From a virus: 64,000 bases of DNA. Both the position numbers and the translations under genes were made by a program. How positions within the stretch are numbered: the first letter of the stretch is position 1; each line of letters begins with the position of its first letter. Where the stretch lies: positions 10,778 through 74,777 of IMG/VR virus record IMGVR_UViG_3300050821_024094, one strand, 5' to 3'. Positions 19,714 through 60,114 of this stretch are shown here, piece after piece. The notes beneath the pieces are model-generated. The model ran no database searches. It had not been told where the DNA came from and worked only from the letters and a program-made list of their open reading frames with translations.

Positions 19714-19787
19714 TGGAGCGGGGAGCTGGAATTGAACCAGCACGTTCCGGCTGGAGACCAGGTGCTCTACCGTTGAGCTATCCCCGC
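19714..19787 (-). tRNA. tRNA-Gly(TCC) with atypical anticodon loop
   Basis: GCGGGGA acceptor stem, GCTC/GAGC D arm, TTCAATT T loop, U73 plus encoded CCA; anticodon loop TCTCCAG. Confidence 0.85.
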
Positions 19788-26302: not shown

Positions 26303-26574
26303 CAGAAGCCATCCCGGAAGGGAGCACCGTGGAGCTCCATGCAGTGGACGCCGAGAGCAGTGACCTTGCGGATTTCGTGGAGAGACGGTTCGACGCCGCC
26401 CGCCTTACACCACGCTGCCCGCGCCTTGGCGAGATACTCCTCCATGCAGACGATGAACTCGCCGGGCGACATGGCCTTTTCGTCGTGGCGTGCGGCGTTG
26501 CCCTTCCCCGCGTCCTGATACAGACGCTCACTGTCGACGGCAGAGTAGACGCGAGTGCGTGAGGCTTGCGGCAT
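26302..26574 (-). CDS. Hypothetical all-alpha protein (possibly MazG-like)
   Basis: ER.YQD...E..KV.AL...CME pattern; GGAG SD with CCCTACCAC motif. Confidence 0.65.
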   Translation of the reverse strand: MPQASRTRVYSAVDSERLYQDAGKGNAARHDEKAMSPGEFIVCMEEYLAKARAAWCKAGGVEPSLHEIRKVTALGVHCMELHGAPFRDGF

Positions 26575-26704
26575 TGAGAGGTCTCCGTGTGGTAGGGAAG
26601 TGATTTGTTATGAGGGCACGCTTGCCACATGCGCGGGCGCACGCAAGATTAAATCGACGCGCGCGTCACGCTTTTCGAGTACTGTGACCGTTACAGGCAG
26701 AAAT

Positions 26705-29156: not shown

Positions 29157-29603
29157 TTAGGCGGCTTCGCAGAACATCTGCGCGCCGAACTGGAAGTTCC
29201 GGCAGGTGAGGTAGTTGCGCGATCGGTCGCCGAACTTGGCATCCGACACGCTCTTGTCGATCGGGATCGCTTCGAGCCCTCGGATCACGAGCATGTCCTT
29301 CGTCCACAGATCGAGCGACGCCATCGCTCCGCGCTTCACCCGCCCCGCCAGATGGGCATTGTTCGCCCAGTTATAGGGTTGGGCGACGCCACAGAAGTAG
29401 AGGATGTTCCCCTCGGGATAGGCGAGTTCGACATCGCGATTGATCGGTGACTTGAGGCCGAAGTTCTTGTCGAACTTTCCGACCAGGCAGCGAGCGCAGT
29501 GTACGTTTTCGTTGAACCCCTCGACCGTCTTGAGCCAGAGATAGCGCCAGCCCCGCAAATGAAGGGCGTGCGAGCGAATGTGGTAGGAAACCCCGTCAGC
29601 CAT
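29157..29603 (-). CDS. Hypothetical Cys/His protein coupled to ParB-methyltransferase
   Basis: HCARC motif; overlaps upstream gene end. Confidence 0.7.
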   Translation of the reverse strand: MADGVSYHIRSHALHLRGWRYLWLKTVEGFNENVHCARCLVGKFDKNFGLKSPINRDVELAYPEGNILYFCGVAQPYNWANNAHLAGRVKRGAMASLDLWTKDMLVIRGLEAIPIDKSVSDAKFGDRSRNYLTCRNFQFGAQMFCEAA

Positions 29604-31681: not shown

Positions 31682-31699
31682 TGGTACTTATATGGACCA
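31682..31699 (+). promoter_or_regulatory. Palindromic operator 1 overlapping promoter of parB-like gene
   Basis: TGGTAC-TTATAT-GGACCA; TTGCAT 19 bp upstream. Confidence 0.65.
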
Positions 31700-31731
31700 A
31701 CGAAAACACCTACCACACGGAGACGACGACG

Positions 31732-32673
31732 ATGACCACGGCCACCGAAACCAAGACGACTGTTGCCCGCAAGACGAAGTTCATTGCCCTCGCGAACGTC
31801 ATCGCGAACCCGAACCAGCCGCGCAAAGATTTCGACGACGCGCATATCCGGGAGCTGGCGAGCTCCATCGCCAAGCACGGACTGATCCAGCCAATATCGG
31901 TGCGCCCGATCGAGAAGGCCGTCGGCAAGACGACGACCTACATGATCATCGCCGGCGAATGCCGCTACCGCGCCCACAAGCTGCTGGCCGAGGAAGGCAA
32001 GCTCGATGCTCCGGTCGTCGAGGCCATCGTTTCAACCGACGTTGACGACACTCAGATGCAGGTGCTCGCCATCATCGAGAACGCCAAGCGCAAGGACGTC
32101 AATCCGATGGAGGAGGCCGACGCCTTCCAATTCCTCCTCGACACCGGCATGACGATCGCCCAGGTCCAGCGCGAGCTGGGCTTCGGCTCCCGAGGCCGGG
32201 TGACCGATCGCCTCAACCTGCTCAAGCTGGAGGACAACGCCAAGACACTGGTGCGCTCCGGTCAGCTCTCCGCCTGCTTCGCCGCAGAGATCGCCACCCT
32301 CCCCGCTCACATGCACACGCGGATGATCCGCAAGGTGTCGACGGGCGAGTTCAAGAGCATCGATCAGATACGCGCCGCCTGCTCGGCCATCCGCGAGGCG
32401 AACGAGCAAGGCAGCATGCTCGGTGGAGCGCCGGCAGCGACCGACGGCGAGATGCGCACGCTCCGCAGCATGGAAGCGCGGATCGACGATGTGCTCAAAA
32501 TGGTCAACGCAGGTTTCAAGGACGGCGAATGCCAGATCGCCAAGAAGGCTGATCCAAACCGCACGACTGCAATGGCCGACAAGCTGGCTGCCGTGCGATC
32601 CGCCATCACGGTGATGGAGTTCCAGCTCCGCAAGGCATCGGCAGTCGCCGACCTGCTCGAAACCGCCGCCTGA
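31732..32673 (+). CDS. ParB/RepB/Spo0J family protein
   Basis: NPNQPRK.F...LA.SI..GLIQPI.VR...IIAGECRYRA; ENAKRKD.NPMEEA; HTH. Confidence 0.92.
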   Translation: MTTATETKTTVARKTKFIALANVIANPNQPRKDFDDAHIRELASSIAKHGLIQPISVRPIEKAVGKTTTYMIIAGECRYRAHKLLAEEGKLDAPVVEAIVSTDVDDTQMQVLAIIENAKRKDVNPMEEADAFQFLLDTGMTIAQVQRELGFGSRGRVTDRLNLLKLEDNAKTLVRSGQLSACFAAEIATLPAHMHTRMIRKVSTGEFKSIDQIRAACSAIREANEQGSMLGGAPAATDGEMRTLRSMEARIDDVLKMVNAGFKDGECQIAKKADPNRTTAMADKLAAVRSAITVMEFQLRKASAVADLLETAA

Positions 32674-37174: not shown

Positions 37175-37192
37175 TGGTACATATACGTACCA
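37175..37192 (+). promoter_or_regulatory. Palindromic operator 2
   Basis: TGGTAC-ATATAC-GTACCA; TTGACG 18 bp upstream. Confidence 0.7.
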
Positions 37193-37260
37193 CGCAGCGA
37201 CAATGACTCTGACGACCAAAAAAAACGACTTCCCTACCACCCACCGCAACGGAGACGACA

Positions 37261-37443
37261 ATGAAGCCCATCACGGTGCGCCTCGCGCACAACCTTCTCC
37301 ATGGCTGCCTGATACTCGACGGCATCCGAATCCGCCGGCTGGCGGAGTTGCTCACGCTCAGCTTGACCGAGCGCAAAGCACTTATCGCCTACCTCGGTCT
37401 CGATGGGATCGAGCGCATCGCTGACACCTTCGAGCTGGCTTGA
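37261..37443 (+). CDS. Hypothetical protein
   Basis: GGAG SD plus CCCTACCAC motif. Confidence 0.6.
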   Translation: MKPITVRLAHNLLHGCLILDGIRIRRLAELLTLSLTERKALIAYLGLDGIERIADTFELA

Positions 37444-37793: not shown

Positions 37794-37830
37794 CAGCCTT
37801 CCCTACCACCCGAGCAACGAGAGAAAAATC

Positions 37831-38208
37831 ATGAACATCAACATTGAAGTCCCGTCACAGCGCATCGCCGACATGATCATCGGTGCGGTCGAAGGCGGCT
37901 CCACCTATTGGGCCAGAAGCCTCGTACTCAAGTCGACGAAGATCGCCGACCGCGAGAGCCCCTGGTACGCCGACCCGCGCCTCTACGAAGACGAGACGCT
38001 GGAGCTCGAACTGATCGAGGACGAGCCGTCCGCGCCGAACCACGACGGCAAGTACACCATCAAATTCGCCGACTTCGCCAAGGGCCTCACCATCATGGCG
38101 CAGAAGCACGCCTGGCACTTCGGCAACATGATCAGCGAGAACGACGACGCGACGACCGCCGACGTGCTCCTGCAATGCATCGCGCTCGGCGAGCTGGTCT
38201 ACGGCTGA
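37831..38208 (+). CDS. Hypothetical protein
   Basis: EGG..YWA...DA..ADV.LQ....GE.VYG motif. Confidence 0.8.
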   Translation: MNINIEVPSQRIADMIIGAVEGGSTYWARSLVLKSTKIADRESPWYADPRLYEDETLELELIEDEPSAPNHDGKYTIKFADFAKGLTIMAQKHAWHFGNMISENDDATTADVLLQCIALGELVYG

Positions 38209-39534: not shown

Positions 39535-39552
39535 TGGTCCATATATGTACCA
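39535..39552 (+). promoter_or_regulatory. Palindromic operator 3
   Basis: TGGTCC-ATATAT-GTACCA; TTGACT 20 bp upstream. Confidence 0.7.
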
Positions 39553-39602
39553 AGCCAAGCCGACGCGGAAAACTGCGCGGCTCCCTACCACGGAGAAGAC
39601 CA

Positions 39603-39992
39603 ATGAACATCCTCACAGGCGAGCGCCTTGCGCGTACCGCCCCGGTGCGCAAGCGCCGACCAGCCATCACCACCACCACTCCCGACGTCACCGAGTACGT
39701 CGTCCATTGGCGAACCTACACCGCGCGACAAGTCTGGCTCGCCGGCGCCGAGGTCTACGCTTGCAAGGACAAGATGCTTCGCGAGATTTACGCCGGCGCG
39801 GTGAACACCGTGCAGCGCGTCATATCCTACAACGCGGCCGAAGGATGGGCGCATGACGTGAGCGCAGACGTCGCCCAGGAGATCGCCGACCGCTTCAACT
39901 CGACGGGCGACTCCATCGAACGGTCGCTCATCAATTTCCTCCACGACCACCTCGGCGTCGAGTCGACGCTTGAGCTCAACACGGAGGAGTGA
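39603..39992 (+). CDS. Hypothetical protein
   Basis: GGAG SD plus motif; RVI.YN..EGW..DVS.D.A pattern. Confidence 0.75.
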   Translation: MNILTGERLARTAPVRKRRPAITTTTPDVTEYVVHWRTYTARQVWLAGAEVYACKDKMLREIYAGAVNTVQRVISYNAAEGWAHDVSADVAQEIADRFNSTGDSIERSLINFLHDHLGVESTLELNTEE

Positions 39993-40235: not shown

Positions 40236-40333
40236 CCATGCCTTGGGTCGCGCTCTTCCTCGGTTTCTGGGCCGGCGACACGGTTGCATAAATAAGAACT
40301 TCCCTACCACCGATAAGCAACGAGGAATTGAGA

Positions 40334-40507
40334 ATGAGTATCGGCGAAGAACAGCGACTCCGATCGGAGATCGCATTCATCGAACAGCGTTACGACGGCC
40401 ACTACCCGAAGTCGATCTGGGCAGTCCTCGAAATCTACCAGCGCGAGCTGGCCGAATGCCTCGCCAAGAAGGACGCCGCTCCGAGCACTGGAGCTGCACA
40501 ACAATAA
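40334..40507 (+). CDS. Hypothetical 57-aa protein
   Basis: Manual ORF MSIGEEQRLRSEIAFIEQRY...; GAGG SD plus motif. Confidence 0.6.
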   Translation: MSIGEEQRLRSEIAFIEQRYDGHYPKSIWAVLEIYQRELAECLAKKDAAPSTGAAQQ

Positions 40508-40572
40508 GCCACTGAGAACCGAGGAGCCGGATCAACCGGCCCTCTCCATCCCTACCACCAGGATCAATCCCC

Positions 40573-42117
40573 ATGCTCGATGTCACCACCGGCGCGCTCG
40601 CGCGCTGCAGCGAAGACGTCACTCAAGACCGGCCGACCGACACCGGTATTGTCCCGCGCGACACGGTCGAGACCATCGTGCGCAACCGCGACCGCGCATT
40701 GGAGCTCTACTGCCTCGCCCACCAGGCCCTGAACACCGCGAACGAAGCTGTCGCCGGAGCGGCAGGAGCAACACGTGACCTCTGCCCAGGAGAGAACCGT
40801 TACAACCACCATCTCAGCAGCGAGAAGGCCCATTGGCTCAAGCCAGGCCGAGTGCCGTCGCGCGAAGACTACATGGCGACCGCGCGCAAGATCACGGACA
40901 CAGATGTCTGGTCGCACCTGATCGCGATCACCGACCTTGAGAAGCTCATGGATCGCAAGGCGAAGGACGAGTTCTCGCGGCAGCTTCAAGACGATCCGCC
41001 TGAGGTGACGGTCGACAACGTGTTCGCGACACTTGAGCACTTCATGGCGGACGCCGGCACCATCTTCCGGCGCGGCATCGCCAATTGCTTCTCCAGCCTC
41101 GATCGCCGGTTCAAGTCACACGACGGTTTCAAGATCGGGAGCCGCGTGATCCTCACCCACATGTTCGATGGGTTTGGCCACATGAACTATCACCGCAACA
41201 CCGAGGCGACGCTCATCGACATCGACCGCACGTTCCGCCTGCTCGACGGAAAGAAGGACTGCGACGTCTACACCGGCATCGTCGGCGCGCTGCGCAACGA
41301 CCGCACGGGTTGGGGCGCTCGGCAGACCGAGACGCACTCTGACTACTTCAAGGTCGTCGGCTACATGAACGGCAACGCGCACATTTGGTTCAAGCGCGAC
41401 GACCTGCTCGAGAAGGTCAACAAGATGCTCGCCGAATACTACGGCGAAACAATCGGCGACGGAAACGACCGCGACGATGGCGGACTGTTCACACCCAAGA
41501 CGACGCTAGCGAAGCACTACGGCTTCTACCCGACGCCGGATGAAGCATCGAAGACGATCATCGACATGGCCGGGCTCTATCGAGAGAAGGGCATGCCTGC
41601 GCTCCGCATCCTCGAACCGTCCGCCGGCACCGGCAACCTCGCGCGGCGTTGCGTGCGAGGATACGGCGAAGGGCACGAGAGCGTGTCGTATCACGCTCGC
41701 GAGCGCATCGCATCCGAGCCCAACCTGGTCGACTGTGTCGAGGTGCAGGCCAATCTCGCCAGCGACCTCAAGGCCGAGGGCATTTATCGGAAGGTCTACG
41801 CCCAGGACTTCCTCACGCTGCAACCCGTCGGCCTCTACGACCGCGTGGTGATGAACCCGCCGTTCGATCGGGAGCGCGACATTGATCACGTCATGCACGC
41901 GCTCAACTTCCTCGCCGACGACGGCGTGTTGATCGCGATTATGTCGGCAGGCACCGAGTTCCGCGAGACGCGCAAGGCAACCGCCTTCCGCGCGTTGATG
42001 AAAAAAATGAACGCCCACTGGCGCGATCTGCCGGCCGGATCGTTCTCCTCCGTCGGCACGAACTGCAACACGATCGTGCTGAAGGTCAGCAAGAACGGCC
42101 GGCACTTCTATCACTGA
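40573..42117 (+). CDS. DUF4942-type DNA N6-adenine methyltransferase
   Basis: FYPTP, LEPSAGTGNL, VVMNPPF; N-terminal helical domain. Confidence 0.88.
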   Translation: MLDVTTGALARCSEDVTQDRPTDTGIVPRDTVETIVRNRDRALELYCLAHQALNTANEAVAGAAGATRDLCPGENRYNHHLSSEKAHWLKPGRVPSREDYMATARKITDTDVWSHLIAITDLEKLMDRKAKDEFSRQLQDDPPEVTVDNVFATLEHFMADAGTIFRRGIANCFSSLDRRFKSHDGFKIGSRVILTHMFDGFGHMNYHRNTEATLIDIDRTFRLLDGKKDCDVYTGIVGALRNDRTGWGARQTETHSDYFKVVGYMNGNAHIWFKRDDLLEKVNKMLAEYYGETIGDGNDRDDGGLFTPKTTLAKHYGFYPTPDEASKTIIDMAGLYREKGMPALRILEPSAGTGNLARRCVRGYGEGHESVSYHARERIASEPNLVDCVEVQANLASDLKAEGIYRKVYAQDFLTLQPVGLYDRVVMNPPFDRERDIDHVMHALNFLADDGVLIAIMSAGTEFRETRKATAFRALMKKMNAHWRDLPAGSFSSVGTNCNTIVLKVSKNGRHFYH

Positions 42118-42157
42118 CTCAAGATCTAACCATCCCTACCACCAGGAGCAGACAACG

Positions 42158-42502
42158 ATGGCACTCCCAGCGACATACCGACCACGCGAAGGCGACATCC
42201 TGATCCTGCACGCGAGGGTCAAGCACAGCTTCACAGGCAGCGACGACGGGCTGTACGTCGAGATCGAAGGTCACTACAGCACGCCGTGCCTTCCACCGGA
42301 GAGTTTCGCAGGTGTCCATCGCCTCGGCTTCGAGGTTGGTGACTACGTTTGGCACGTCGACCAGCAAGCACACGCCACCGTGCTCGCGATCAACGGCAAC
42401 CAAGCTTGGATCAAGTGGCAGATCGGCGGGTCCACCATGGTCATTGCCATGACTGACCTAGAGCGCAGCGCGCGCCCGGAGCAAGCGGAGGCCGCGGAAT
42501 GA
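42158..42502 (+). CDS. Hypothetical protein (SH3/KOW-like)
   Basis: AGGAG SD plus motif; FEVGDYV...ATVLAI. Confidence 0.65.
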   Translation: MALPATYRPREGDILILHARVKHSFTGSDDGLYVEIEGHYSTPCLPPESFAGVHRLGFEVGDYVWHVDQQAHATVLAINGNQAWIKWQIGGSTMVIAMTDLERSARPEQAEAAE

Positions 42503-43347
42503 ACACGCTCAAGACGACGCTGCTCCTGACCGCAATGATGGCAGCGTTCCTCGCCATCGGTAATTTGTTTGCCGACACCGCCGGCGCGGTGGTCGGCTTC
42601 ATCGCCGCCATCCTGTTCGGTGCGCACACCTACTGGTACGGGCTTCAGAACGCCGTGCGCACGCATCAAGCCAAGCCCGCCGACTTCGCCCGCAAGCGAG
42701 AGCGACAGTTGATCGAGCTGGTCAACGAGCTCGCGAGAAACGCAGGCATCCCGACGCCTCGCGTCTTCGTGTTCGACAGCGCCCAGCCGAATGCGTTTGC
42801 CGCCGGGCGCGGACCGAGTCATTCCGCGATCATCGTCTCGACCGGGCTACTGGCCTGCCTCGATTGGAACGAAATCGCCGGCGTGATCGCGCACGAGCAG
42901 GCGCATATCAAGAACCGCGACGCGCTCACGATGACGGTTGCCTCTGGCCTGGCCGGCGTGATCGCCTTCCTTGCGGGGACCATCGCCATGCTCGGGCTGG
43001 CCAACCGCCGGGGCGGCGGGATCGGTGCGATCGTGTTCGGCGCCATCATGGCGCTTGGGGCGCTTGTGCTCCAAGCCATGCTCGGCCGGTCACGAGAGTA
43101 TGTCGCCGACCGTGATGGCGCAGCGATCTGCGGTCACCCACTTTGGATCGCCAGGGCATTGCGCCGCATGAGCGGAGGAACGAAGCAGGTCAATCATGCT
43201 GCGGAGAGCAACCCGGCTCTATCGGCCCTCTACTTCGTGAACCCTCTGTCCGGGGGTTGGGTGGCGAGGATGTTCTCGACTCACCCGCCCGTTGAGAAGA
43301 GAATCAGACGACTGGAGCGAATGACCGAACACGGAGGGACTAAGTGA
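42499..43347 (+). CDS. htpX: Membrane zinc metalloprotease HtpX (M48)
   Basis: QPNAFAAGR, VIAHEQAHIKNRD, SREYVAD, FSTHPP.EKRI. Confidence 0.92.
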   Translation: MNTLKTTLLLTAMMAAFLAIGNLFADTAGAVVGFIAAILFGAHTYWYGLQNAVRTHQAKPADFARKRERQLIELVNELARNAGIPTPRVFVFDSAQPNAFAAGRGPSHSAIIVSTGLLACLDWNEIAGVIAHEQAHIKNRDALTMTVASGLAGVIAFLAGTIAMLGLANRRGGGIGAIVFGAIMALGALVLQAMLGRSREYVADRDGAAICGHPLWIARALRRMSGGTKQVNHAAESNPALSALYFVNPLSGGWVARMFSTHPPVEKRIRRLERMTEHGGTK

Positions 43348-43553
43348 AGCTCGCAGACGTTGACGTCCAAGACCTCATCACAGCGCTCCGCGATGAACGC
43401 AGTGTCGGTATCAGCGCAGCGCGGGAAGAACATCGGAAGCCGACGGACGCAGAAGAGATCACTTTCTGCGTCTTAAGGGCCCTAGAGTGCGCACTAGCAG
43501 CGGCGATTTCGCGGCGAGAGACAGAAGTTTACGACCCTACGTTGGGGGCTTGA
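43344..43553 (+). CDS. Hypothetical protein
   Basis: GGAGG SD; last gene of plus-strand block. Confidence 0.5.
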   Translation: MKLADVDVQDLITALRDERSVGISAAREEHRKPTDAEEITFCVLRALECALAAAISRRETEVYDPTLGA

Positions 43554-43590
43554 AAAAGAACCGGCCAGAACCCGAGGGCTCTGGCCGGTC
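43553..43590 (-). terminator. Intrinsic terminator of candidate sRNA
   Basis: GACCGGCCAGAGCCC-TC-GGGTTCTGGCCGGTT-CTTTTT on minus strand. Confidence 0.85.
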
Positions 43591-43659
43591 TAGTTGGCAA
43601 ATGCTTCCCTACCACAGGAGCAACGAAGACGTGTCACAGGGACACGCGCCCTTCGTAGC
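43553..43659 (-). ncRNA. Candidate trans-acting sRNA antisense to the phage RBS motif
   Basis: Upstream TTGCGA-N17-CATGTT; 5' hairpin; seed CTCCTGTGGTAGGGAAG; 3' terminator with T run. Confidence 0.7.
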
Positions 43660-43663
43660 CCCG

Positions 43664-43693
43664 AACATGGATCAGGAAGCGGTGAATCGCAAG
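43664..43693 (-). promoter_or_regulatory. Sigma70-like promoter of candidate sRNA
   Basis: (C)TTGCGA at 43692-43687, 17-bp spacer, CATGTT at 43669-43664. Confidence 0.55.
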
Positions 43694-44080
43694 ATGGCGC
43701 CTGCCCTAAATGTTAACGCCAGTGCCGCGACCAGGTCCGAGTGCAGAGCTTGCATTCGACCCGTTCAATCAGAACCTCCCGGCTAGTGCTTAGGCCGATG
43801 ACGTCCGTCTCCGCCCCAAGCGGGCAGATGCAAGGGACGGCGCGGGCCTCGGAGACTTTGGCGGCCTTATCAACCGGCCGCTCGGCGGTGAGAACATCAC
43901 ATTCGGAGATCATGGTTTGGCCTGGAGGTTGCCCAGGCACAGATGCGCGTCCTCGCGCGCGCACGCGCGAGAGATGACCGATCGGAATGTGTCTGGAAAT
44001 GCGAAACGCAAACGGGCCCCACCTGGGGGCCCGCGCAAGTTCCGCCGAATCTATTTATTTGTTAGCACGGTTGAGCAAGG

Positions 44081-44692
44081 CTAGCCAAGTGACATGAGAC
44101 GCGCTTCGAGCGCCGCCGCCTCCAGGCCGTGACTTGCGAGAGCCGCATCGATCTGATCGTCAGCAGGCATCACCGCTTTGAGCTTGTGCGCGATCGCCAC
44201 CATCTGGAGATCGCGCCGCTCATAGACCGAGTTCCGGTGAAGGCCGAGTGAGCGAGCAATTTGCTGCCCCTCCTTCCCGGCCGCCATGCCGCAAATGATC
44301 TGATAGTCGCGGCGTCGGTTTTTCCCGACCAGGAGCTTGGGGAAGACGTCGAAGATGACGTGCATGCGCTGCACGTCCCTCGGCGTCGGCTGAGCGGTCC
44401 GGAGCAGAGAATCATTGCTCTGGTGCCCTGCCTCGATCGCGGCGAGCTCGGTGCGATAGGCTTCCATTCGCTCCTCTTGCGTGCGCGTAAATTCCGGCCA
44501 GAGAGACCGCATGGAGTAGAGCAATGCGGCCTCCGGATCGGGGAGCTTCTTCATCGTCGTCATCGCCCGCTGGAGGACGTAGAAGACCAGATCGGTGGGT
44601 CTCACCCTTTCCTTGCCCTCGGCGACGAGAGCTTGGAGAGCATCCCTGAAAGCCAGGTGCAGGATCTCGGGGTAGTCCTTCTCCCCTGCCAT
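44081..44692 (-). CDS. Putative late transcription regulator (Q-position, C-terminal HTH)
   Basis: Last gene of replication operon; QQIARSLGLHRNSVYER HTH. Confidence 0.65.
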   Translation of the reverse strand: MAGEKDYPEILHLAFRDALQALVAEGKERVRPTDLVFYVLQRAMTTMKKLPDPEAALLYSMRSLWPEFTRTQEERMEAYRTELAAIEAGHQSNDSLLRTAQPTPRDVQRMHVIFDVFPKLLVGKNRRRDYQIICGMAAGKEGQQIARSLGLHRNSVYERRDLQMVAIAHKLKAVMPADDQIDAALASHGLEAAALEARLMSLG

Positions 44693-45015
44693 CACACCAC
44701 CAGATCGTCTTCGGCCGGCAACGATAGCTCGAGCCGCGCACTGGAGCGCTGCACAAGGTAGATCGCCTCCATCAGGTCGGGAGAGCGATCCTGGATCATG
44801 AAAACCTCGCCGCGTTCGTGCGCCAGACACACTTCGACCGCGAGAGCCTGGAGCACGATGCGCTGGTCGCCGGGCAGGTTGGAGAACTCGAGACTCTTGT
44901 CGCCGGCGAGGTTGCCTTGGTGGTAGATCGCGTAATCGCCGGCCTTCGCCATACGCAAGAAGACCTTGAACTCGTCCGCAGTGGTGACCGTGGTGGGTTT
45001 TTTCTTGGTGCTCAT
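44692..45015 (-). CDS. Hypothetical protein
   Basis: A..GD..IYH.GNLA.D pattern; GGAG SD plus motif. Confidence 0.7.
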   Translation of the reverse strand: MSTKKKPTTVTTADEFKVFLRMAKAGDYAIYHQGNLAGDKSLEFSNLPGDQRIVLQALAVEVCLAHERGEVFMIQDRSPDLMEAIYLVQRSSARLELSLPAEDDLVV

Positions 45016-45068
45016 TGGTCGATGTCTCCGTGGTGGTAGGGATTGTGTTGTGTGTTTTTTGTGAGAGC

Positions 45069-45527
45069 TCAGAAGGGGATTTCGTCGTCGAGCTCGTCGC
45101 GACGAGACGTCTGCGGACCATCTGCCGGCGGAGGAGTGCCGGCGTCCGCCGGGCGATTGCCCTTGTTTTGGTCCCAGGCTTTGCAGCGGATGATTTGCAG
45201 CTCGGATTTGAACGGCCGCAGCACGACCTCGGTCGCGTAGCGTTTGCCACCACCCTGGTCTTCCCAAGAGCGGGTCTCGAGCTGGCCCACGATCATGATC
45301 TGATCGCCCTTGGCGAGGTACTGTTCGATGACCTTCACCAGGCCATCGGCCCAGACGACGACGCGGTGCCACTGCGTCTTCTCCTTGCGCTCGCCCGTGC
45401 TCTTGTCCTTCCAGCTTTCCGAGGTGGCGATCGAGAGCGTCGCGAGCTTCGCACCGTCGGCGAGAGCTTTGACTTCGGGGTCCTGGCCGAGATTGCCGAG
45501 CAGGATGACTTTGTTCATTGCAGCCAT
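45069..45527 (-). CDS. ssb: Single-stranded DNA-binding protein
   Basis: NKVILLGNLGQDPE, TQWHRVV, LDDEIPF tail. Confidence 0.97.
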   Translation of the reverse strand: MAAMNKVILLGNLGQDPEVKALADGAKLATLSIATSESWKDKSTGERKEKTQWHRVVVWADGLVKVIEQYLAKGDQIMIVGQLETRSWEDQGGGKRYATEVVLRPFKSELQIIRCKAWDQNKGNRPADAGTPPPADGPQTSRRDELDDEIPF

Positions 45528-45542
45528 GTGGTAGGTCTCCGT

Positions 45543-51427: not shown

Positions 51428-51835
51428 TTAGGCGGTCGAGACTTTTTCATCGAGCGCCCGCGCATGACGGGAGCACTCGGAACGATACGCGGCGCGCAGA
51501 TTCTCGTAGACGTCCCAGTAGATTCCTTTGGGACGGCGATACTCAAGATTCCACAGCAACGTCGGTGGCAATCGGTGCCGCACGGACAACCGGCGCATGG
51601 CGGTCTCCTTGTCGCCAGGGAAACGGGTTTCCATCTTCACCATCTCCTGGGACATGCGGACCGCCTCGTCCATGTAGCCGGAGGGGTTGCTGATCCCACC
51701 TTGCTTCAACAGCAAAGACTCTTTGCTGCATTGCAAAAACTCTTGGGGGATACTCTTCATCGTTGAGGTTGGGATTTGAAGGAGGCGCCACGATGAGGGA
51801 ACGATGGGCGCGGCCAGTAGATCGGTGCCGCTCAT
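51428..51835 (-). CDS. Putative CII-position regulator
   Basis: PGD.E.AMRRL.....P..LWNL.YRRPK pattern; second gene of lytic operon. Confidence 0.6.
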   Translation of the reverse strand: MSGTDLLAAPIVPSSWRLLQIPTSTMKSIPQEFLQCSKESLLLKQGGISNPSGYMDEAVRMSQEMVKMETRFPGDKETAMRRLSVRHRLPPTLLWNLEYRRPKGIYWDVYENLRAAYRSECSRHARALDEKVSTA

Positions 51836-52164
51836 GCTGCAACTCCCGCGCCGGCATCACGTGCGGACGCGCGCGTAGCACGGTCCGTGCCAACGCCAGC
51901 ACGACGAATTTCCGCCTGCTGGATGGCAGTCATGTAGGTTTCGAGGATCGCGTCTTGTTCGGCCCGCTCGGAAGCATCCTTACGGCGAAACGCGATGACA
52001 GACTTGAGCGCTTTGACGTCGTATCCGGCGCCCTTGGCTTCCTGATAGATGTCGCGCTTGTCGTCGTTGAGGTCTTTGATTTCCGCTTCGAGGTGCTCGA
52101 CCCGCTCTACGAGGGAAAGCAATTGTTCTCCCGCGGCTGAACTGGAACCATTTCCGTTTGACAT
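51832..52164 (-). CDS. GapR/DUF2312 (UPF0335) nucleoid-associated protein homologue
   Basis: QL...VERVE.LE.E...L..D..DIY.EAKG.GYD.KAL...I..R..D..ER.EQ.AILETY. Confidence 0.9.
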   Translation of the reverse strand: MSNGNGSSSAAGEQLLSLVERVEHLEAEIKDLNDDKRDIYQEAKGAGYDVKALKSVIAFRRKDASERAEQDAILETYMTAIQQAEIRRAGVGTDRATRASARDAGAGVAA

Positions 52165-52192
52165 GGTTGCCTCTCCGAACTCAGGGACGCGG

Positions 52193-52221
52193 TGTATGCG
52201 GTTATTTTTCCGCTTTGTCAA
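52193..52221 (-). promoter_or_regulatory. PR-like promoter with operator GCGGTTATTTTTCCGC (52198-52213)
   Basis: TTGACA-N17-CATACA on minus strand; operator lies in the spacer. Confidence 0.75.
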
Positions 52222-52330
52222 CCGGAAAGGTCTTTTAACCGCACCAATGGGGTTTTTTCCATGGGTGACAAGTGTTAGACATGCGCCGGAAGGGGTCCCG
52301 GTCTGAAATTTTGGGGGCGCGGATTTAGTC

Positions 52331-53098
52331 ATGACCAGCGACAAGAACACGCCATATGCGATGCAACTGGCGGATATCCTTGCGAGAATCGAATCGCGAC
52401 AGAAGGTGGTCGGACTTAGTGACCACGCCGCCAGTCTCGAGGCAGGGCTGTCTCGTGACGCAATCCGAAGCATGCGCCGCGGCTTGAAGGACGGCAAACA
52501 AGAGGGGGTGCAGTCCAGAACTATCCGCGCGCTCGCGGCACCCCTGCACACGACACCTGAATGGTTGATGACTGGCGAAGGGCCGGAGTCTCTCGACGCC
52601 GACGAGATTGCACCGCGTGCGCCCTTCCTCGAGGTGGTGGGAGAGATAGCCGCTGGCGTGTGGATTGCGGCAGACAAGCACTTGGTCGACCCGCCGCGCC
52701 TGCCTTATTTGGTCCCTCCAGACCCCATGTATTCGCAGTCAGCGCAATTTGCGCTGATCATGCGCGGCTCATCGTTCAACCGATACGCCGCAGATGGCGA
52801 CGCCGTCATTTGCATCGACGTGCGGCGGGCGAACCTGCGACTTCAGAACAACGATTTGGTTTTGGCCTGGAGCGTTCAAGTCGGCGGCTCCCTGAGAGAA
52901 ATCACGGCGCGTCGACTGCATCTGCAGCGAAACGGTACTGGCGAGCTCACCTATGAATCGACGGATGATCGCTTCGCGTCGACGACCGAGCGCGTCTCAC
53001 TGCGAGACGAAGGCCGTGTGACTAAAGTCGGAGCAGCGGAGATTTCAGTCACTGCCGTCGTGTGTGGCATCTATCGCTCCGTGCCACGCGGAAATTAG
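52331..53098 (+). CDS. cI: CI-like repressor (HTH plus S24 domain)
   Basis: HTH ...LA..L.TTPEWL.TGEG; VVGEIAAG.W; MRGSSFN...DGD. Confidence 0.88.
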   Translation: MTSDKNTPYAMQLADILARIESRQKVVGLSDHAASLEAGLSRDAIRSMRRGLKDGKQEGVQSRTIRALAAPLHTTPEWLMTGEGPESLDADEIAPRAPFLEVVGEIAAGVWIAADKHLVDPPRLPYLVPPDPMYSQSAQFALIMRGSSFNRYAADGDAVICIDVRRANLRLQNNDLVLAWSVQVGGSLREITARRLHLQRNGTGELTYESTDDRFASTTERVSLRDEGRVTKVGAAEISVTAVVCGIYRSVPRGN

Positions 53099-53585: not shown

Positions 53586-53969
53586 GTGCTCCCTACCACA
53601 CTCTCTCCCTATACGAGCGGCCCAGGTCGCCCGGCCTATCAACGGCGCGTGCTCGCCAAGGCGAACGGCGCGCTCGTCATCACCTTCGTCCTGAGCAAAG
53701 ACGTAGCAGCCTGCATCGGCCTCAAGCCGGGCGGCCGTTTCTGTGTGGAGCTCGAGCAGACGCGGATGGTGCTGCGCGCGACGCACGCCGACTTCGGCGG
53801 CAAGGCCACTGCTTTCGGGAACCAGGTCAGCGTCAACATCCGAGGCGCGTTTCTCGCGCGCGACGTTCCCGCTGAGCCCGTTGAGCTCTCCCATCAAATT
53901 CGAGACGGCGAGCTGATCGTCGATCTCTCCCAGCTCCCTACCACGGAGAATCAACGGAGAAACGCATGA
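53586..53969 (+). CDS. Hypothetical protein, first gene of PL operon (possibly AbrB-like)
   Basis: GAGGA SD, GTG start; LSKDVA..IGLKPG.R. Confidence 0.65.
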   Translation: MLPTTLSPYTSGPGRPAYQRRVLAKANGALVITFVLSKDVAACIGLKPGGRFCVELEQTRMVLRATHADFGGKATAFGNQVSVNIRGAFLARDVPAEPVELSHQIRDGELIVDLSQLPTTENQRRNA

Positions 53970-55872: not shown

Positions 55873-56375
55873 AGGTCGATGTCGAGACACCCAAGCTGCT
55901 GTTGCTGCACACGCCGCAGCACGCGCTGGTCCCTGCCACTCAGTACGACCTGGAGAAGCTGTGCAGGTACGGCGTCGGCCACGTCATCGAGGCGAAGCTG
56001 TGGCAGGAACGGTCGATCAAGCAACACCGACTCTATTGGGTCGCGCTGGGCATCGTTGCAGAGAACAACGAGGTGTGGACGAGAGCGGAGGTGGTCCACC
56101 GGAATATCAAAAAGGCGCTCGGCTATGTCGAGACCTACTTCGATTTCTTCGGCGTCGAGTGTGAGTACGTCCAATCCACCGGCTTCAACGCGATGGATCA
56201 GGGCGCCTTCAAAGAATACTTCGACCAGGCGATGGAGCTCATCCGGCTGCATTTCAAGGTCGATATCGACGAGTTGCTGAAAGAGAGCCGGCAAAGACTG
56301 GCTCCGCAGCGCCACTTCCCTACCACGCACCGGAGCAACCATGAACATCGTCGACTTCCTGCGCAGCAACATTAG
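55869..56375 (+). CDS. DUF1367-like protein
   Basis: RS.KQHR.YW...K..LG...S..F..MDQ..F..YF. Confidence 0.7.
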   Translation: MKVDVETPKLLLLHTPQHALVPATQYDLEKLCRYGVGHVIEAKLWQERSIKQHRLYWVALGIVAENNEVWTRAEVVHRNIKKALGYVETYFDFFGVECEYVQSTGFNAMDQGAFKEYFDQAMELIRLHFKVDIDELLKESRQRLAPQRHFPTTHRSNHEHRRLPAQQH

Positions 56376-56831: not shown

Positions 56832-57325
56832 TCCTGCCCGCCGGGACGTTCAAAGTCAGCGACTACCGCAAGGCGGTCCCCGTCTACGTCAAGCTCGCGG
56901 TGCTGATCCGCCAGGAGTGCAAGGACACGGGCGGCGAACGGTTTGAGGACGACGTGGAGCTGGAGTTCGATCACTCGCCGGCCCTGGTCAATCGCGACTA
57001 CGACACCGAGGCCGGCGATTTCATCCCACCGCAGAACGATCCGAAGTTCATCGTCGCGAGCCGCAAGGCCGAACACCTGGAGAAGACGACGGGCCGAAAG
57101 GCGGGAGCAGAGAAGACAGTGACCACGCGCGGGAGTGATGTGGGCGAAGCCGCCCGCACGCGCGGGATCAAGCGAACCCAGGCCGCGCACCAAGCGCGGA
57201 TGGAGGCGAAGCAGATCGGCGCCGAGGTTCCGGTCGAACCAATCCGCAAGCGAACGCGGAAGATAGCGAGCCGACCATTCTCGAAAGAGCGGCGGCCATT
57301 CCCTACCAGCCAACGGAGAGCATGA
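56828..57325 (+). CDS. HNH-like nuclease
   Basis: EFDH.PAL...ND......H..KT. Confidence 0.65.
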   Translation: MILPAGTFKVSDYRKAVPVYVKLAVLIRQECKDTGGERFEDDVELEFDHSPALVNRDYDTEAGDFIPPQNDPKFIVASRKAEHLEKTTGRKAGAEKTVTTRGSDVGEAARTRGIKRTQAAHQARMEAKQIGAEVPVEPIRKRTRKIASRPFSKERRPFPTSQRRA

Positions 57326-57816: not shown

Positions 57817-57928
57817 TATTTATGTGAGTGGCCGCCATTTTTACTTGACTGGAAGCGCCGGCCTGTAAGTATCCATCCGCCAACAAAAAGTAACGACGTC
57901 CCTACCACAAAGATCAACGGAGAATCCA

Positions 57929-59044
57929 ATGAAGCTATCAATCGAGCGCTCCGCGCTCCTCAAAGCCGTCAACGCAGTTCGCGGCTCGGTCGAGCGCAAG
58001 GCAACAATCCCCATCCTCGCCAACGTGCTCCTCGCTGCGAGCGGCGAACAACTCTCCATCACCGGAACCGATCTTGACATTGAGTGCCGCACTGTAGCGC
58101 CGGCCGAAGTGTCGAAGCCCGGTCAGATCACGGTGGCCTGCGAGATTTTGCGCGACATCGCCTCCAAGGTCGGTGCGAGCGACAAGATCAGCATGGAGGT
58201 CGAGAAGGGCGGCGACACCCTGATCGTGAAGTCTGGGCGCTCGCGCTTCAAGCTCAACACCATCCCGGCGACTGACTTCCCCTCGCTCAATGTCGGGAAG
58301 TTCGACGCCACATTTGTGATTACGTCCGATCACTTGACTGGGCTGTTCAGCAAGACAGAGTTCGCGATCTCGGACGAGGCGACGCGCTACTATCTCTGCG
58401 GCACCTACCTGCACCCGATCGCGCGCGACAATGCGTCGGTCCTGCGCGCGTGCGCAACCGACGGCCATCGCCTTGCGATGATCGATGTGGATGGGCCCGA
58501 GGGTTCGCACGCTATGCCCGGCGTGATCGTCCCGCGCCGGACGGTGACCCAGGTGATCGCGCTCTGCGATACCGCCGACAGCGTCACGGTCGAGGTGTCG
58601 ACGTCCAAGATCACGTTTGAAACCGAGACGACCAAGCTCACGTCCAAGCTGATCGATGGGCAGTTCCCCGACTACATGCGCGTCGTCCCGCTGGGGAACG
58701 ATAAGCCGCTGAGCGTTGCACGACAGGACTTTGTCGATGCCATCGCGAGAGTGTCGGCGATCAAGACCGAGCGCAGCCCGGCCATGAAGCTCTCGATGGG
58801 TGACGGGGCCGTGGTGCTCTCGATGGCGAACTCGGACACCGGCACCTCGTCAGACGAACTCGACGCCGAATACGTTTCCGACCCGATGGAGATCGGATTC
58901 AACTCTCGCTACCTCGCCGAGATTTGCAGTGAGATCGACGCGGATCGGATCGAGCTCAAACTGGCTGATCCGGGCTCGCCCACCATCATCGCTCCGGTCG
59001 GCGACAGCGGTGCGACCTACGTGCTCATGCCCATGAGAGTTTGA
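57929..59044 (+). CDS. dnaN: DNA polymerase III beta sliding clamp
   Basis: TIPILANVLL, TDLD, TRYYL.G, ATDGHRLA, SKLIDG.FPDY.RV, IGFNSRYL, VLMPMRV. Confidence 0.97.
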   Translation: MKLSIERSALLKAVNAVRGSVERKATIPILANVLLAASGEQLSITGTDLDIECRTVAPAEVSKPGQITVACEILRDIASKVGASDKISMEVEKGGDTLIVKSGRSRFKLNTIPATDFPSLNVGKFDATFVITSDHLTGLFSKTEFAISDEATRYYLCGTYLHPIARDNASVLRACATDGHRLAMIDVDGPEGSHAMPGVIVPRRTVTQVIALCDTADSVTVEVSTSKITFETETTKLTSKLIDGQFPDYMRVVPLGNDKPLSVARQDFVDAIARVSAIKTERSPAMKLSMGDGAVVLSMANSDTGTSSDELDAEYVSDPMEIGFNSRYLAEICSEIDADRIELKLADPGSPTIIAPVGDSGATYVLMPMRV

Positions 59045-59142: not shown

Positions 59143-60114
59143 ATGACCGTCTTTCGCGTTTGCGACATCGAAACTACCGGCATTGACCCGGAGCAGCACG
59201 CGATCGTGGAGATCGCCTGCACGGACGTCGTCGACCGCCAACTTGCTACTGAGTACAGTTCGCTGGTCAAGCCGCCTCACCCGATCCCGCCCGAGGCGAT
59301 GGCTGTCCACCACATCACCGATGCCGACGTGGCAGACGCCCCAGAGGCGCGCGAGATTGTCCCGTTGTTCCTCGGGACTGACTACCGCGACATGATCTAT
59401 GTCGCTCACAATTCACAGTTCGAGCAGGGTTTCCTAGCGCCCTACGTTCCCGGCGCGCGCTGGCTCTGCACCTTCAAGTCGGGCCTGCGAGTGTGGCCGG
59501 ATGCCCCCGGTCACTCCAATCAGGTGCTTCGTTACGTGCTTGGCCTCCAGCTTTCACCTGGCGCTCCGCACCGCGCAGGACCCGACACCATTGTCACGGC
59601 GAACATTCTCCTGGAGCTCCTAAGGCACGCGAGTGTCGAGGACATGCTCGCATGGACGATGGAGCCGCCGATCTTCAAGACGGTGAGGTTCGGAAAGAAG
59701 CATCGCGGCGAGCCGTGGGTCGACCTGCCGCAGGACTACCTGCTCTGGATCATCGAGAAGTCCGACCTCGACGACGACACGAAGTGGAACGCCAAGCGCG
59801 TGCTGAAGATGCGGCGTGCGGAGGCCGAGAAGAAGACCAACGAAGCGCGCAACGCCTACACCGCGCTGGCCGTGCAAGCCGCTGCGATCGCCCTCACCGT
59901 CGCAGACCTTGAGACCTGGTTTCGAGGCGAGACGGCCAACCGATCCAAGCACGGCGTCTATCCCAACACCCCACCCTACAAGCGGATTGTTGATGCCTGT
60001 GCGGCGCGTAAAGCCGCGCTGAGCCCGAAAAAAGAAGCGACCATCACCATCCCTACCACGGAGAAAACGAATGCCAGAGACCCAGAGTACGGTTCGCTCC
60101 TACCGCCCATCTAA
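59143..60114 (+). CDS. Exonuclease X-like DEDDh 3'-5' exonuclease with DUF3820-like domain
   Basis: DIETTG, VAHN..FE, HRA..D, FGK.HRG....LP.DYL.W. Confidence 0.9.
   Translation: MTVFRVCDIETTGIDPEQHAIVEIACTDVVDRQLATEYSSLVKPPHPIPPEAMAVHHITDADVADAPEAREIVPLFLGTDYRDMIYVAHNSQFEQGFLAPYVPGARWLCTFKSGLRVWPDAPGHSNQVLRYVLGLQLSPGAPHRAGPDTIVTANILLELLRHASVEDMLAWTMEPPIFKTVRFGKKHRGEPWVDLPQDYLLWIIEKSDLDDDTKWNAKRVLKMRRAEAEKKTNEARNAYTALAVQAAAIALTVADLETWFRGETANRSKHGVYPNTPPYKRIVDACAARKAALSPKKEATITIPTTEKTNARDPEYGSLLPPI

What the first reader, a model, noticed from the sequence alone, without database searches (positions are those of the whole stretch)
43553..43693. Candidate phage-encoded master sRNA complementary to 17 phage ribosome-binding regions
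Seen: between two convergent operons, the minus strand has TTGCGA-N17-CATGTT, then a ~105-nt unit. The unit comprises a 5' hairpin (ACGAAG..CGUGUC/GACACG..CUUCGU), a probably unpaired segment UGCUCCUGUGGUAGGGAAGC, and a strong intrinsic terminator ending CUUUUU. This segment is the reverse complement of CUUCCCUACCAC(A)GGAGCA, the motif at the starts of 17 phage genes. It is the only strong copy not attached to a convincing gene. Inference: a trans-acting antisense RNA blocks translation of many early/middle genes, either maintaining lysogeny or driving the early-to-late switch. Known phage antisense RNAs (P1 C4, P4 CI, P22 Sar, lambda OOP) act on one or a few sites, so a genome-wide regulon would be unusual.
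Basis: partly seen in the sequence, partly recalled or inferred. Interest (0 to 1): 0.95.

Follow-up and report, generated by a model that had tools for sequence, protein, structure and literature searches.

The report
Phage small RNA mirroring gene-start tag
A soil prophage puts the same private 12-base tag just ahead of the ribosome site of about 15 of its early (DNA-metabolism and accessory) genes. It also keeps one mirror copy of that tag inside a conserved ~105-base hairpin RNA unit, so one small RNA probably controls translation of the whole gene set, although nobody has yet seen the RNA.

Summary
CTTCCCTACCAC occurs 17 times at up to 2 mismatches, against 2.4 expected. About 15 copies lie in gene sense, 11-23 nt before start codons of non-structural genes. 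None serves the tail, head or packaging genes.

The copy at 43604-43615 (+) has no conserved gene. Read on the minus strand, it lies in a ~105-nt unit (43657-43553). The unit has -35/-10-like hexamers, a 5' hairpin, a weak second hairpin showing GUGGUA in its loop, and a strong intrinsic terminator.

One metagenomic relative (L009; neighbouring protein 61% identical) keeps the unit in the same place:
- six base pairs changed on both sides;
- G:U pairs that work only on this strand;
- a seed change (G to U) matching the change in its own gene tags.

The three-hairpin fold is about 9 kcal/mol better on the minus strand in both phages.

I read it as a trans-acting antisense sRNA that occludes the tagged ribosome sites (confidence 0.55). 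No RNA data exist, the promoter is only predicted, and there is one relative lineage. The closest analogue is the start-associated sequences (SAS) of Cluster K mycobacteriophages, whose function is still unknown. Other agents of this scan noted the same tag-plus-mirror layout in at least eight other phage genomes; those notes are unchecked.

The parts
43687..43692 (-). -35-like hexamer TTGCGA
   Evidence: Read directly. L009 has TTGTCA at the aligned place. It is below the consensus-scan threshold.
43664..43669 (-). -10-like hexamer CATGTT, 17 nt after the -35
   Evidence: L009 has TACATT at the same distance (8 nt) from the conserved CGAAGG.
43553..43657 (-). Predicted ~105-nt sRNA, from the inferred start to the end of the U run
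   Evidence: Fold is -52.5 kcal/mol, z -5.6. It is an island of conservation against L009. No Rfam family matches.
43623..43656 (-). Hairpin 1: outer stem ACGAAG/CUUCGU and inner stem GCGUGUC/GACACGU
   Evidence: Two inner pairs changed on both sides in L009, and the G:U pair is kept.
43621..43630 (-). GUCUUCGUUG, a second pairing module that complements CAACGGAGAC-type SD contexts with one G:U
   Evidence: Invariant between the window and L009. CAACGRAGA has six exact copies; four are at tagged RBSs and one is here.
43602..43622 (-). Hairpin 2 (seed hairpin). The 5' arm holds the anti-SD CUCCU, the loop is GUGGUA, and the 3' arm is GGGAAGC
   Evidence: One pair changed on both sides (C:G to U:A) and U:G is kept.
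43604..43615 (+). Orphan copy of the tag CTTCCCTACCAC; the minus-strand RNA carries its complement
   Evidence: No conserved plus-strand ORF follows it.
43553..43590 (-). Intrinsic terminator: 14-bp stem, loop CUCG, then CUUUUU
   Evidence: Two G:U pairs make it minus-strand specific. L009 has a different stem sequence plus a U run.
43713..43913 (-). 66-aa Cys-rich ORF (CxC ... CxxC...RTW) directly upstream on the same strand. The sRNA could also be its 3' UTR
   Evidence: 38% identical to the L009 ORF, E 6e-12. It was called as a gene in the source collection. No Pfam or PHROG match.
44012..44034 (-). Terminator-like hairpin ending the replication operon, before the Cys ORF
   Evidence: conserved in L009 at 1241-1270.
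37229..37240 (+). Tag before the 60-aa gene at 37261
37798..37809 (+). Tag before the 125-aa gene at 37831; best non-self duplex
39580..39591 (+). Tag before the 129-aa gene at 39603
40299..40310 (+). Tag before the 57-aa gene at 40334
40547..40558 (+). Tag before the DUF4942/DNA methyltransferase gene at 40573
42131..42142 (+). Tag before the 114-aa gene at 42158. Tag plus SD match the sRNA over about 19 nt with one bulge
53588..53599 (+). Tag overlapping the GTG start (53586) of the first rightward early gene
53933..53944 (+). Tag before the Gp157-like gene at 53966 (RecT follows)
56315..56326 (+). Tag before the 98-aa gene at 56341
57298..57309 (+). Tag (variant ...CCAG) before the dATP/dGTP pyrophosphohydrolase-like gene at 57322
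57897..57908 (+). Tag before the DNA polymerase III beta-clamp gene at 57929
60048..60059 (+). Tag before the 102-aa gene at 60071
45033..45044 (-). Tag before the 107-aa gene at 45015. The orthologous site in L009-L011 reads CCCTACCAG
45528..45536 (-). 8-nt core CCTACCAC abutting the SSB start codon. L009-L011 read CC(C)TACCAA
51345..51353 (-). 9-nt core abutting the start of the DnaA_C-HTH gene (51344)
26589..26600 (-). Tag before the 90-aa gene at 26574
31709..31716 (+). 8-nt core before the ParB-like gene at 31732

Best explanation
The minus strand of 43657-43553 encodes a ~105-nt trans-acting antisense sRNA.

How it is made (inferred): it is transcribed from its own weak sigma-70-type promoter, and probably also as the 3' end of the upstream 66-aa gene's mRNA. 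It ends at a strong intrinsic terminator.

How it is built (shown by folding and comparison): its middle hairpin shows GUGGUA in the loop. The loop is flanked by GGGAAG on the 3' side and by the anti-Shine-Dalgarno CUCCU on the 5' side. The adjacent GUCUUCGUUG can extend the pairing.

What it pairs with (complementarity shown, pairing inferred): these segments complement a private 5'-UTR tag, (C)UUCCCUACCAC, plus the following GGAG/CAACGGAGA ribosome site. The tag sits 11-23 nt before the start codons of about 15 early, DNA-metabolism and accessory genes.

What it does (inferred): pairing starts at the loop on these largely unstructured leaders and covers the 30S binding site. One RNA therefore lowers translation of the whole tagged set while leaving the untagged structural genes alone. 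The likely roles are to hold down leaky early-gene expression in the lysogen and to set a threshold that an induced burst of early mRNA must exceed.

The direction of the effect and its timing are inferences.
For: 1. Tag statistics and placement.
- 17 matches against 2.4 expected.
- All start-associated copies are in gene sense, 11-23 nt before starts.
- The tagged genes are a methyltransferase, SSB, a Gp157-like protein, a MazG-like protein, the beta clamp, a DnaA_C-HTH protein, ParB and small unknowns.
- The structural module at 1-29 kb has no tag at its tail, head or packaging genes.

2. Unit anatomy.
- A terminator with a U run exists on the minus strand only.
- The three-hairpin fold has z = -5.6.

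3. Conservation. L009 (DUF6362 neighbour 61% identical) keeps the order Cys ORF, -35/-10-like hexamers, hairpin 1, mirror of the tag, terminator. The unit is 60-70% identical, against 23-50% in its immediate flanks.

4. Structure rather than sequence is conserved.
- 92% of cells are paired.
- Six pairs changed on both sides, against 0-1 when the partners are slid.
- Three G:U pairs are kept in both phages.

5. Strand.
- The fold is -52.5 (minus) against -43.3 (plus) in the window, and -46.8 against -37.8 in L009.
- Hairpin 2 forms only in the sRNA sense in L009.

6. No conserved ORF on the other strand. L009 also lacks an SD there.

7. Seed and targets change together.
- Window tags read ...CCAC and the seed reads GUGG...
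- Tags in L009-L011 read ...CCAA or ...CCAG and the seed reads UUGG....

8. Ten of the twelve best non-self duplex sites in the 128 kb of both strands are tagged RBSs. The tagged leaders are nearly unstructured, at 0 to -5 kcal/mol.

9. CAACGRAGA exact copies concentrate at tagged RBSs and in the unit itself.
Against: - No transcript evidence of any kind.
- The hexamers are weak (CATGTT matches 3 of 6) and fail the consensus scan.
- There is only one relative lineage (L009-L011). Structural covariation therefore rests on two sequences, and 10 of 500 shuffles reach the observed values.
- Seed-target covariation would also arise if this were just one more sense copy of a tag read by some other factor.
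- Part of the seed is paired in hairpin 2, and the second module lies inside hairpin 1. Full pairing needs these to open.
- Duplex ranking is partly circular, because the tag was defined by the complement.
- In several targets the tag ends 20 nt or more before the start codon, at the edge of the ribosome footprint.
Confidence: 0.55

Rival explanations
1. There is no dedicated regulator. The stretch is simply the 3' UTR and terminator of the 66-aa minus-strand gene, and also the end stop for the converging plus operon. The plus-strand tag in it is one more sense-oriented copy of a site read by something else. That reader could be a DNA-binding protein acting like the stoperators of Cluster A mycobacteriophages, a translation-enhancer factor, or a recombination 'boundary' sequence.
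For: - The tag copy is co-oriented with the plus operon that ends at 43553.
- The hairpin at 43559-43590 could stop both converging transcripts.
- The promoter is weak.
- Covariation of this copy with the other tags is expected if all copies are read by one factor.
- In L009 a gene also converges on the unit from the same side.
Against: - A 12-bp protein site does not explain the invariant CGAAGGGCGC and GTCTTCGTTG around it, the pairs changed on both sides, or the strand-specific G:U pairs.
- It does not explain the 9 kcal/mol strand asymmetry in both phages.
- The tags keep a narrow distance to start codons even in long intergenic regions such as 57817-57928. They also share SD context with the unit. 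Both point to the RNA level.
- The genes beyond the unit differ between the window and L009. The unit therefore travels with the minus-strand module, not with the plus operon.
Confidence: 0.2
2. The sRNA is real but works differently. It may activate tagged genes by opening weak CUUCC:GGAG leader hairpins or by protecting the mRNAs. Alternatively, its main targets may be host mRNAs, or the early genes of incoming related phages (RNA-based superinfection immunity).
For: - Some leaders can pair UCCC/CUCC with their own GGAG (39583, 42134, 53936, 60051).
- The host genome is unknown, so host targets cannot be excluded.
- Known phage sRNAs such as VpdS and PreS act largely on host RNAs (PMC12197685).
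Against: - The leader hairpins are very weak (-1 to -5 kcal/mol), and most leaders are open.
- The sRNA itself carries an anti-SD next to the anti-tag, so pairing would cover the SD rather than free it.
- The tag is a property of the phage, present in about 15 copies.
Confidence: 0.15
3. The plus-strand tag serves a real small gene: GTG at 43631, 51 aa, overlapping the end of the 66-aa gene in antisense.
For: The GTG lies 15 nt after the tag and 10 nt after GGAG, inside the range seen for the other tagged genes.
Against: - GC3 is 0.62, against 0.76-0.80 in neighbouring real genes.
- The start codon is buried in a hairpin.
- The corresponding L009 frame shows no similarity (no alignment at E <= 100), and L009 has no SD there.
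Confidence: 0.04

Closest known systems
Start-associated sequences (SAS/ESAS) of Cluster K mycobacteriophages (Pope et al. 2011, PMC3203893; function still open in PMC11373665, 2024, and PMC12699233, 2025)
   Same: Both are short asymmetric repeats in 11-19 copies, just upstream of start codons, restricted to non-structural genes, and in one orientation. [quoted passage not shown] I confirmed this in Anaya: 16 forward copies and 1 reverse copy. The reverse copy lies in a 385-bp gene-free gap after a terminator. That gap is conserved in 182 Cluster K records.
   Different: - The sequence is unrelated (GGGATAGGAGCCC).
- SAS contains the SD and sits 3-9 nt from the start. This tag lies 5' of a separate SD.
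- The hosts are actinobacteria. Here a GapR-like domain suggests an alphaproteobacterial host.
- No RNA regulator has been proposed in those papers.
- In Cluster K the mirror is exact only in K1-type phages. Krueger, Ekdilam and Ellie keep SAS unchanged but have diverged pyrimidine-rich versions at the mirror site. The parallel there is therefore weaker than in this phage.
Phage immunity and antisense RNAs: P1/P7 c4, P4 CI, P22 sar, lambda OOP and aQ (P22 sar, OOP and aQ as reviewed in PMC12197685; P1 c4 and P4 CI from my own knowledge)
   Same: They are small, structured, terminator-ended phage RNAs that pair with phage mRNAs at or near ribosome sites, often through loops. They hold back lytic functions.
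   Different: Those RNAs act on one or two sites. They are usually encoded opposite, or in the same transcript as, their target. Here a single trans-encoded RNA matches about 15 dispersed sites that share a private tag.
Regulon-type bacterial sRNAs with a conserved seed (GcvB with C/A-rich elements; AbcR1/2 and other anti-SD sRNAs of alphaproteobacteria; from my own knowledge)
   Same: One seed, many mRNAs, pairing at or just upstream of the SD, and a Rho-independent terminator.
   Different: Those targets share only short degenerate elements that are part of host physiology. Here the target element is a 12-nt near-identical tag that the phage itself places on a chosen gene class, and seed and tags change together between relatives.
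Stoperators of Cluster A mycobacteriophages (L5 repressor gp71; mentioned in PMC3203893, details from my own knowledge)
   Same: Asymmetric 13-bp sites in many copies, in short intergenic gaps, oriented with transcription.
   Different: Stoperators are protein-bound DNA sites found in both genome arms, including structural operons. They have no fixed relation to start codons and no mirror copy in a structured RNA.

Membership tests
Trans-encoded base-pairing sRNA | Discrete transcript with its own promoter | tested here: inconclusive
   TTGCGA-N17-CATGTT is present. TTGTCA-N16-TACATT sits at the aligned place in L009. The site is below the consensus-scan threshold, and no RNA data exist.
Trans-encoded base-pairing sRNA | Rho-independent terminator at the 3' end | tested here: met
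   A 14-bp GC-rich stem plus CUUUUU on the minus strand. L009 has a different stem plus a U run.
Trans-encoded base-pairing sRNA | Seed complementary to several mRNAs at their translation-initiation regions | tested here: met
   About 15 tagged leaders. Ten of the twelve top non-self duplex sites are tagged RBSs.
Trans-encoded base-pairing sRNA | Conserved secondary structure with compensatory changes | tested here: met
   Six pairs changed on both sides and 92% of cells paired, against 39-50% when slid. Only two sequences are available.
Trans-encoded base-pairing sRNA | Regulatory effect on targets; chaperone (Hfq/ProQ) dependence | not testable with these tools
   Uncultured soil provirus. 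No RNA run is listed.
Cluster K SAS | Asymmetric repeat immediately upstream of starts of non-structural genes, in one orientation, with a single reverse copy | tested here: met
   compare.
Cluster K SAS | Consensus GGGATAGGAGCCC that includes the SD, 3-9 nt from the start codon | tested here: not met
   This tag is CTTCCCTACCAC. It lies 5' of a separate GGAG, 11-23 nt from the start.
Stoperator-type repressor sites | Sites spread over the whole genome including structural operons, with no fixed spacing to starts | tested here: not met
   There are no copies at structural genes, and spacing to starts is narrow.
Stoperator-type repressor sites | Bound by the phage repressor as double-stranded DNA | not testable with these tools
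   No binding data.
Any Rfam family | Match at or near the gathering score | tested here: not met
   Only tRNA-Gly matched in the window. At E <= 10 in 43300-44100, only far sub-threshold hits appeared.
cis-antisense immunity RNAs (P22 sar, lambda OOP type) | Encoded opposite its single target gene | tested here: not met
   The unit lies in a convergent intergenic gap. The targets are dispersed over 26-60 kb.

The most novel reading that the evidence does not exclude
Private 'start tag plus mirror sRNA' pairs are a general and so far unrecognised layer of phage gene control. A phage marks its early and accessory genes with a tag of its own. A single loop-presenting sRNA reads all the tags, giving a threshold switch between lysogeny and lytic growth. 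The same RNA gives sequence-specific, RNA-based immunity against incoming relatives that carry the same tag. This would also explain what start-associated sequences are for.
Probability: 0.3. Interest if true: 0.88.

Novelty: new variant of a known kind. Interest (0 to 1): 0.72.

Why it matters
Phage antisense RNAs described so far act on one or a few sites. Start-associated sequences were described in 2011, and papers from 2024-2025 still call their role undefined.

This locus offers a concrete, testable mechanism. One small RNA reads a private tag on a whole class of phage genes. Seed and tags change together between relatives. That would add a post-transcriptional regulon to the classic repressor/operator picture of temperate phages. 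This phage also has candidate operator palindromes, so two layers could be compared.

The design is simple enough to test with reporter fusions in a surrogate host, and it might be reusable as an orthogonal translational switch.

Tried and rejected
- **Relatives.** No relative was found in IMG/VR with the DUF6362 protein, the primase/helicase or the DUF6362 alignment. None was found in genome contigs with the alignment or a 24-base sRNA pattern, nor in IMG/VR with that pattern. A looser pattern gave two chance hits inside coding DNA. The ParB-MTase gene found only distant phages.
- **Expression.** No RNA holder is listed for this stretch. Laying four soil DNA runs gave only identical low-depth contigs, so there was no microdiversity to use.
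- **Host.** Cluster look-ups gave no names or host.
- **Rfam.** No family matched.
- **Cis anti-SD idea.** The tag could in principle sequester the SD within the same leader. The leaders are almost unstructured, so I rejected this as the main role.
- **16S rRNA helix 45 idea.** The tag might pair with helix 45 (GUAGGGGAAC, recalled from memory). I rejected it by inference. That helix lies 5' of the anti-SD in 16S rRNA, so an mRNA partner would have to lie 3' of the SD, whereas the tag lies 5'. The host rRNA could not be checked.
- **Plus-strand 51-aa ORF.** Rejected.
- **Cluster K parallel.** The reverse SAS lies in a conserved non-coding region behind an invariant TAGACT. However, it is diverged in non-K1 phages whose SAS is unchanged. 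I keep it as a lead only.

Full report
**Context.** The window is 64 kb of a 74.8-kb IMG/VR provirus record. The same DNA occurs at low depth in several soil metagenomes.
- Tail, baseplate, scaffold, portal and terminase genes fill about 1-29 kb on the minus strand.
- The rest holds ParB-like and methyltransferase genes, and a plus-strand accessory operon at 37.2-43.5 kb with a DUF4942/DNA methyltransferase and an M48 peptidase.
- A minus-strand replication operon follows: DUF1376 primosomal protein, primase/helicase, SSB, a 107-aa gene and a DUF6362 gene.
- A rightward early operon encodes a Gp157-like protein, RecT, a MazG-like protein, the beta clamp and an exonuclease.
- A GapR-like domain protein suggests an alphaproteobacterial host.

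**The tag.** CTTCCCTACCAC has 17 matches at up to 2 mismatches, against 2.39 expected by shuffling.
- Inspection of each site shows 15-16 copies, counting 8- or 9-nt cores at ssb, parB and the DnaA_C-HTH gene. All are in gene sense.
- The 3' end of the tag lies 11-23 nt before the start codon in most cases. In three cases it abuts or overlaps the start codon.
- The tag usually follows an A-rich tract and precedes a GGAG-type Shine-Dalgarno (SD) site.
- None serves a structural gene.
- The leaders are nearly unstructured, at 0 to -5 kcal/mol.

**The unit.** The copy at 43604-43615 (+) lies in the 159-bp gap between the converging stop codons at 43553 (+) and 43713 (-). On the minus strand the order is as follows:
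1. TTGCGA at 43692-43687.
2. A 17-nt spacer.
3. CATGTT at 43669-43664.
4. About 7 nt.
5. Hairpin 1 at 43656-43623.
6. Hairpin 2 at 43622-43602.
7. A 14-bp terminator stem at 43590-43559, then CUUUUU.

Hairpin 2 is weak. It places GUGGUA in the loop, the anti-SD CUCCU in the 5' arm, and GGGAAGC in the 3' arm. The hexamers are weak and fall below the consensus scan. A second terminator-like hairpin at 44034-44012 ends the replication operon. The 66-aa Cys-rich ORF (43913-43713) and the unit may therefore form a small transcription unit of their own.

**Comparative test.** Only one relative lineage could be reached: three short soil-metagenome contigs, L009-L011. L009 carries ssb, the 107-aa gene, the DUF6362 gene (61% identical), the conserved terminator, a homologue of the Cys ORF (38% identical, E 6e-12), and then the same unit. 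That unit reads TTGTCA-N16-TACATT, hairpin 1, the mirror of the tag, a terminator and a U run.
- Beyond the unit the genes differ (a TPR-like gene). The unit therefore belongs to the minus-strand module.
- The unit is an island of 60-70% identity between flanks of 23-50%. CGAAGGGCGC, GTCTTCGTTG and TGGTAGGGAA are invariant.
- On the window's structure, 92% of cells pair. Six pairs changed on both sides: two in hairpin 1, one in hairpin 2 and three in the terminator. Slid controls give 0-1. Three G:U pairs are kept in both phages.
- In both phages the sRNA-sense strand folds about 9 kcal/mol better than its complement. In L009 hairpin 2 exists only in that sense.
- The plus-strand GTG ORF (43631, 51 aa) has typical tag geometry but low GC3. 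It has no counterpart in L009.

**Seed and targets.** The window seed reads ...UGUGGUAGGGAAG, and 15 of 16 tags read ...CCCUACCAC. The L009 seed reads ...UUUGGUAGGGAAC. The two orthologous tags seen in L009-L011 read CC(C)UACCAA at ssb and CCCUACCAG at the 107-aa gene. The 107-aa gene tag and its SD can pair with the L009 seed over about 15 contiguous positions if G:U pairs are counted.
It would also arise if the orphan copy were one more sense tag, so I weight it less than the strand-specific structure.
- The scan's note e1-6081569 proposed a second pairing segment, and I checked it. CAACGRAGA has six exact copies. Four lie at tagged RBSs and one lies in the unit. The invariant GUCUUCGUUG would pair with CAACGGAGAC through one G:U. 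It lies inside hairpin 1, so using it needs that stem to open.
- A duplex scan of both strands ranks tagged RBSs as 10 of the 12 best non-self sites. This is partly circular.

**Reading.** The best explanation is a trans-acting antisense sRNA that occludes tagged ribosome sites (0.55). The rivals are:
- a plain 3' UTR/terminator holding one more sense tag, read by a protein or serving another role (0.20);
- a real sRNA with another mode or other targets (0.15);
- a plus-strand micro-gene (0.04).

Whether the RNA maintains lysogeny, times the early-to-late switch or gives immunity is not addressed by any data here.

**Known systems.** Rfam has nothing. Reviewed phage sRNAs act on one or a few sites, or on host RNAs.

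The closest analogue is Cluster K SAS: the same placement, the same restriction to non-structural genes, and a single reverse copy without a gene in K1 phages. Its function is still called undefined in 2024-2025. I checked Anaya and found 16 forward copies and one reverse copy. The reverse copy lies in a 385-bp gene-free gap after a terminator. That gap is conserved in 182 Cluster K records, and an invariant TAGACT lies upstream in the nine phages I aligned. Krueger, Ekdilam and Ellie keep SAS unchanged while their mirror site has diverged. That parallel is therefore only a lead.

**Earlier notes of this scan.** Other agents reported the same tag-plus-mirror-hairpin layout in at least eight other phage genomes. 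These are unchecked AI notes and I do not count them as evidence. They do suggest the arrangement is recurrent.

Noticed in passing
window 37176-37191, 39536-39551, 31683-31698 (+): Three 16-bp palindromes of the type GGTAC-N6-GTACC (GGTACATATACGTACC, GGTCCATATATGTACC, GGTACTTATATGGACC). Each lies 10-40 nt upstream of a tagged leader and overlaps a TATA-like -10. They are probably operators of a second, protein-based control layer on the accessory and ParB operons.
   Followed up: partly
window 43713-43913 (-): A 66-aa Cys-rich protein (CxC ... CxxC-RTW-R-W) lies directly upstream of the sRNA unit and is co-conserved with it in L009 (38% identical). It has no Pfam or PHROG family and no other homologue in 5.8 billion proteins. 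It could be a partner of the RNA.
   Followed up: partly
window 44081-45253 (-): The 390-aa open frame is two genes. One is a tagged 107-aa gene (45015-44692) in another frame. The other is the 203-aa DUF6362 gene (44692-44081), joined to it by an ATGA overlap. L009 has the same arrangement.
   Followed up: yes
window 44012-44034 (-); L009 1241-1270: A conserved GC-rich hairpin followed by TTTGCGTTTCG, right after the DUF6362 gene. It is the likely end of the replication operon and makes the Cys ORF plus sRNA a separate unit.
   Followed up: partly
L013 (Mycobacterium phage Anaya) 34700-35067; alignment A5: The single reverse-oriented SAS of K1 mycobacteriophages lies in a ~380-bp gene-free region after a terminator. 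An invariant TAGACT and two conserved hairpins lie upstream of it. A rightward RNA there would carry CCUCCUAUCCC, the complement of SAS. In Krueger, Tierra, Bryler, Ekdilam and Ellie the site has diverged (CUCCCUUCCC-like); SAS is unchanged in the three of these I checked (Krueger, Ekdilam, Ellie).
   Followed up: partly
window 57929-59044 (+), 51832-52677 (-): The phage encodes its own DNA polymerase III beta clamp (tagged) and a protein with a GapR-like DNA-binding domain. The latter hints at an alphaproteobacterial host.
   Followed up: no
window 19714-19787 (-): A tRNA-Gly (UCC) gene sits between the structural genes and the portal gene. It is the only Rfam hit in the window.
   Followed up: no
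window 29580-29591 (-): A weak tag copy (GTTTCCTACCAC) lies just after the stop of the ParB-MTase gene, with no start codon within 75 nt. It is a second copy without an obvious gene, on the sense strand of its operon.
   Followed up: no
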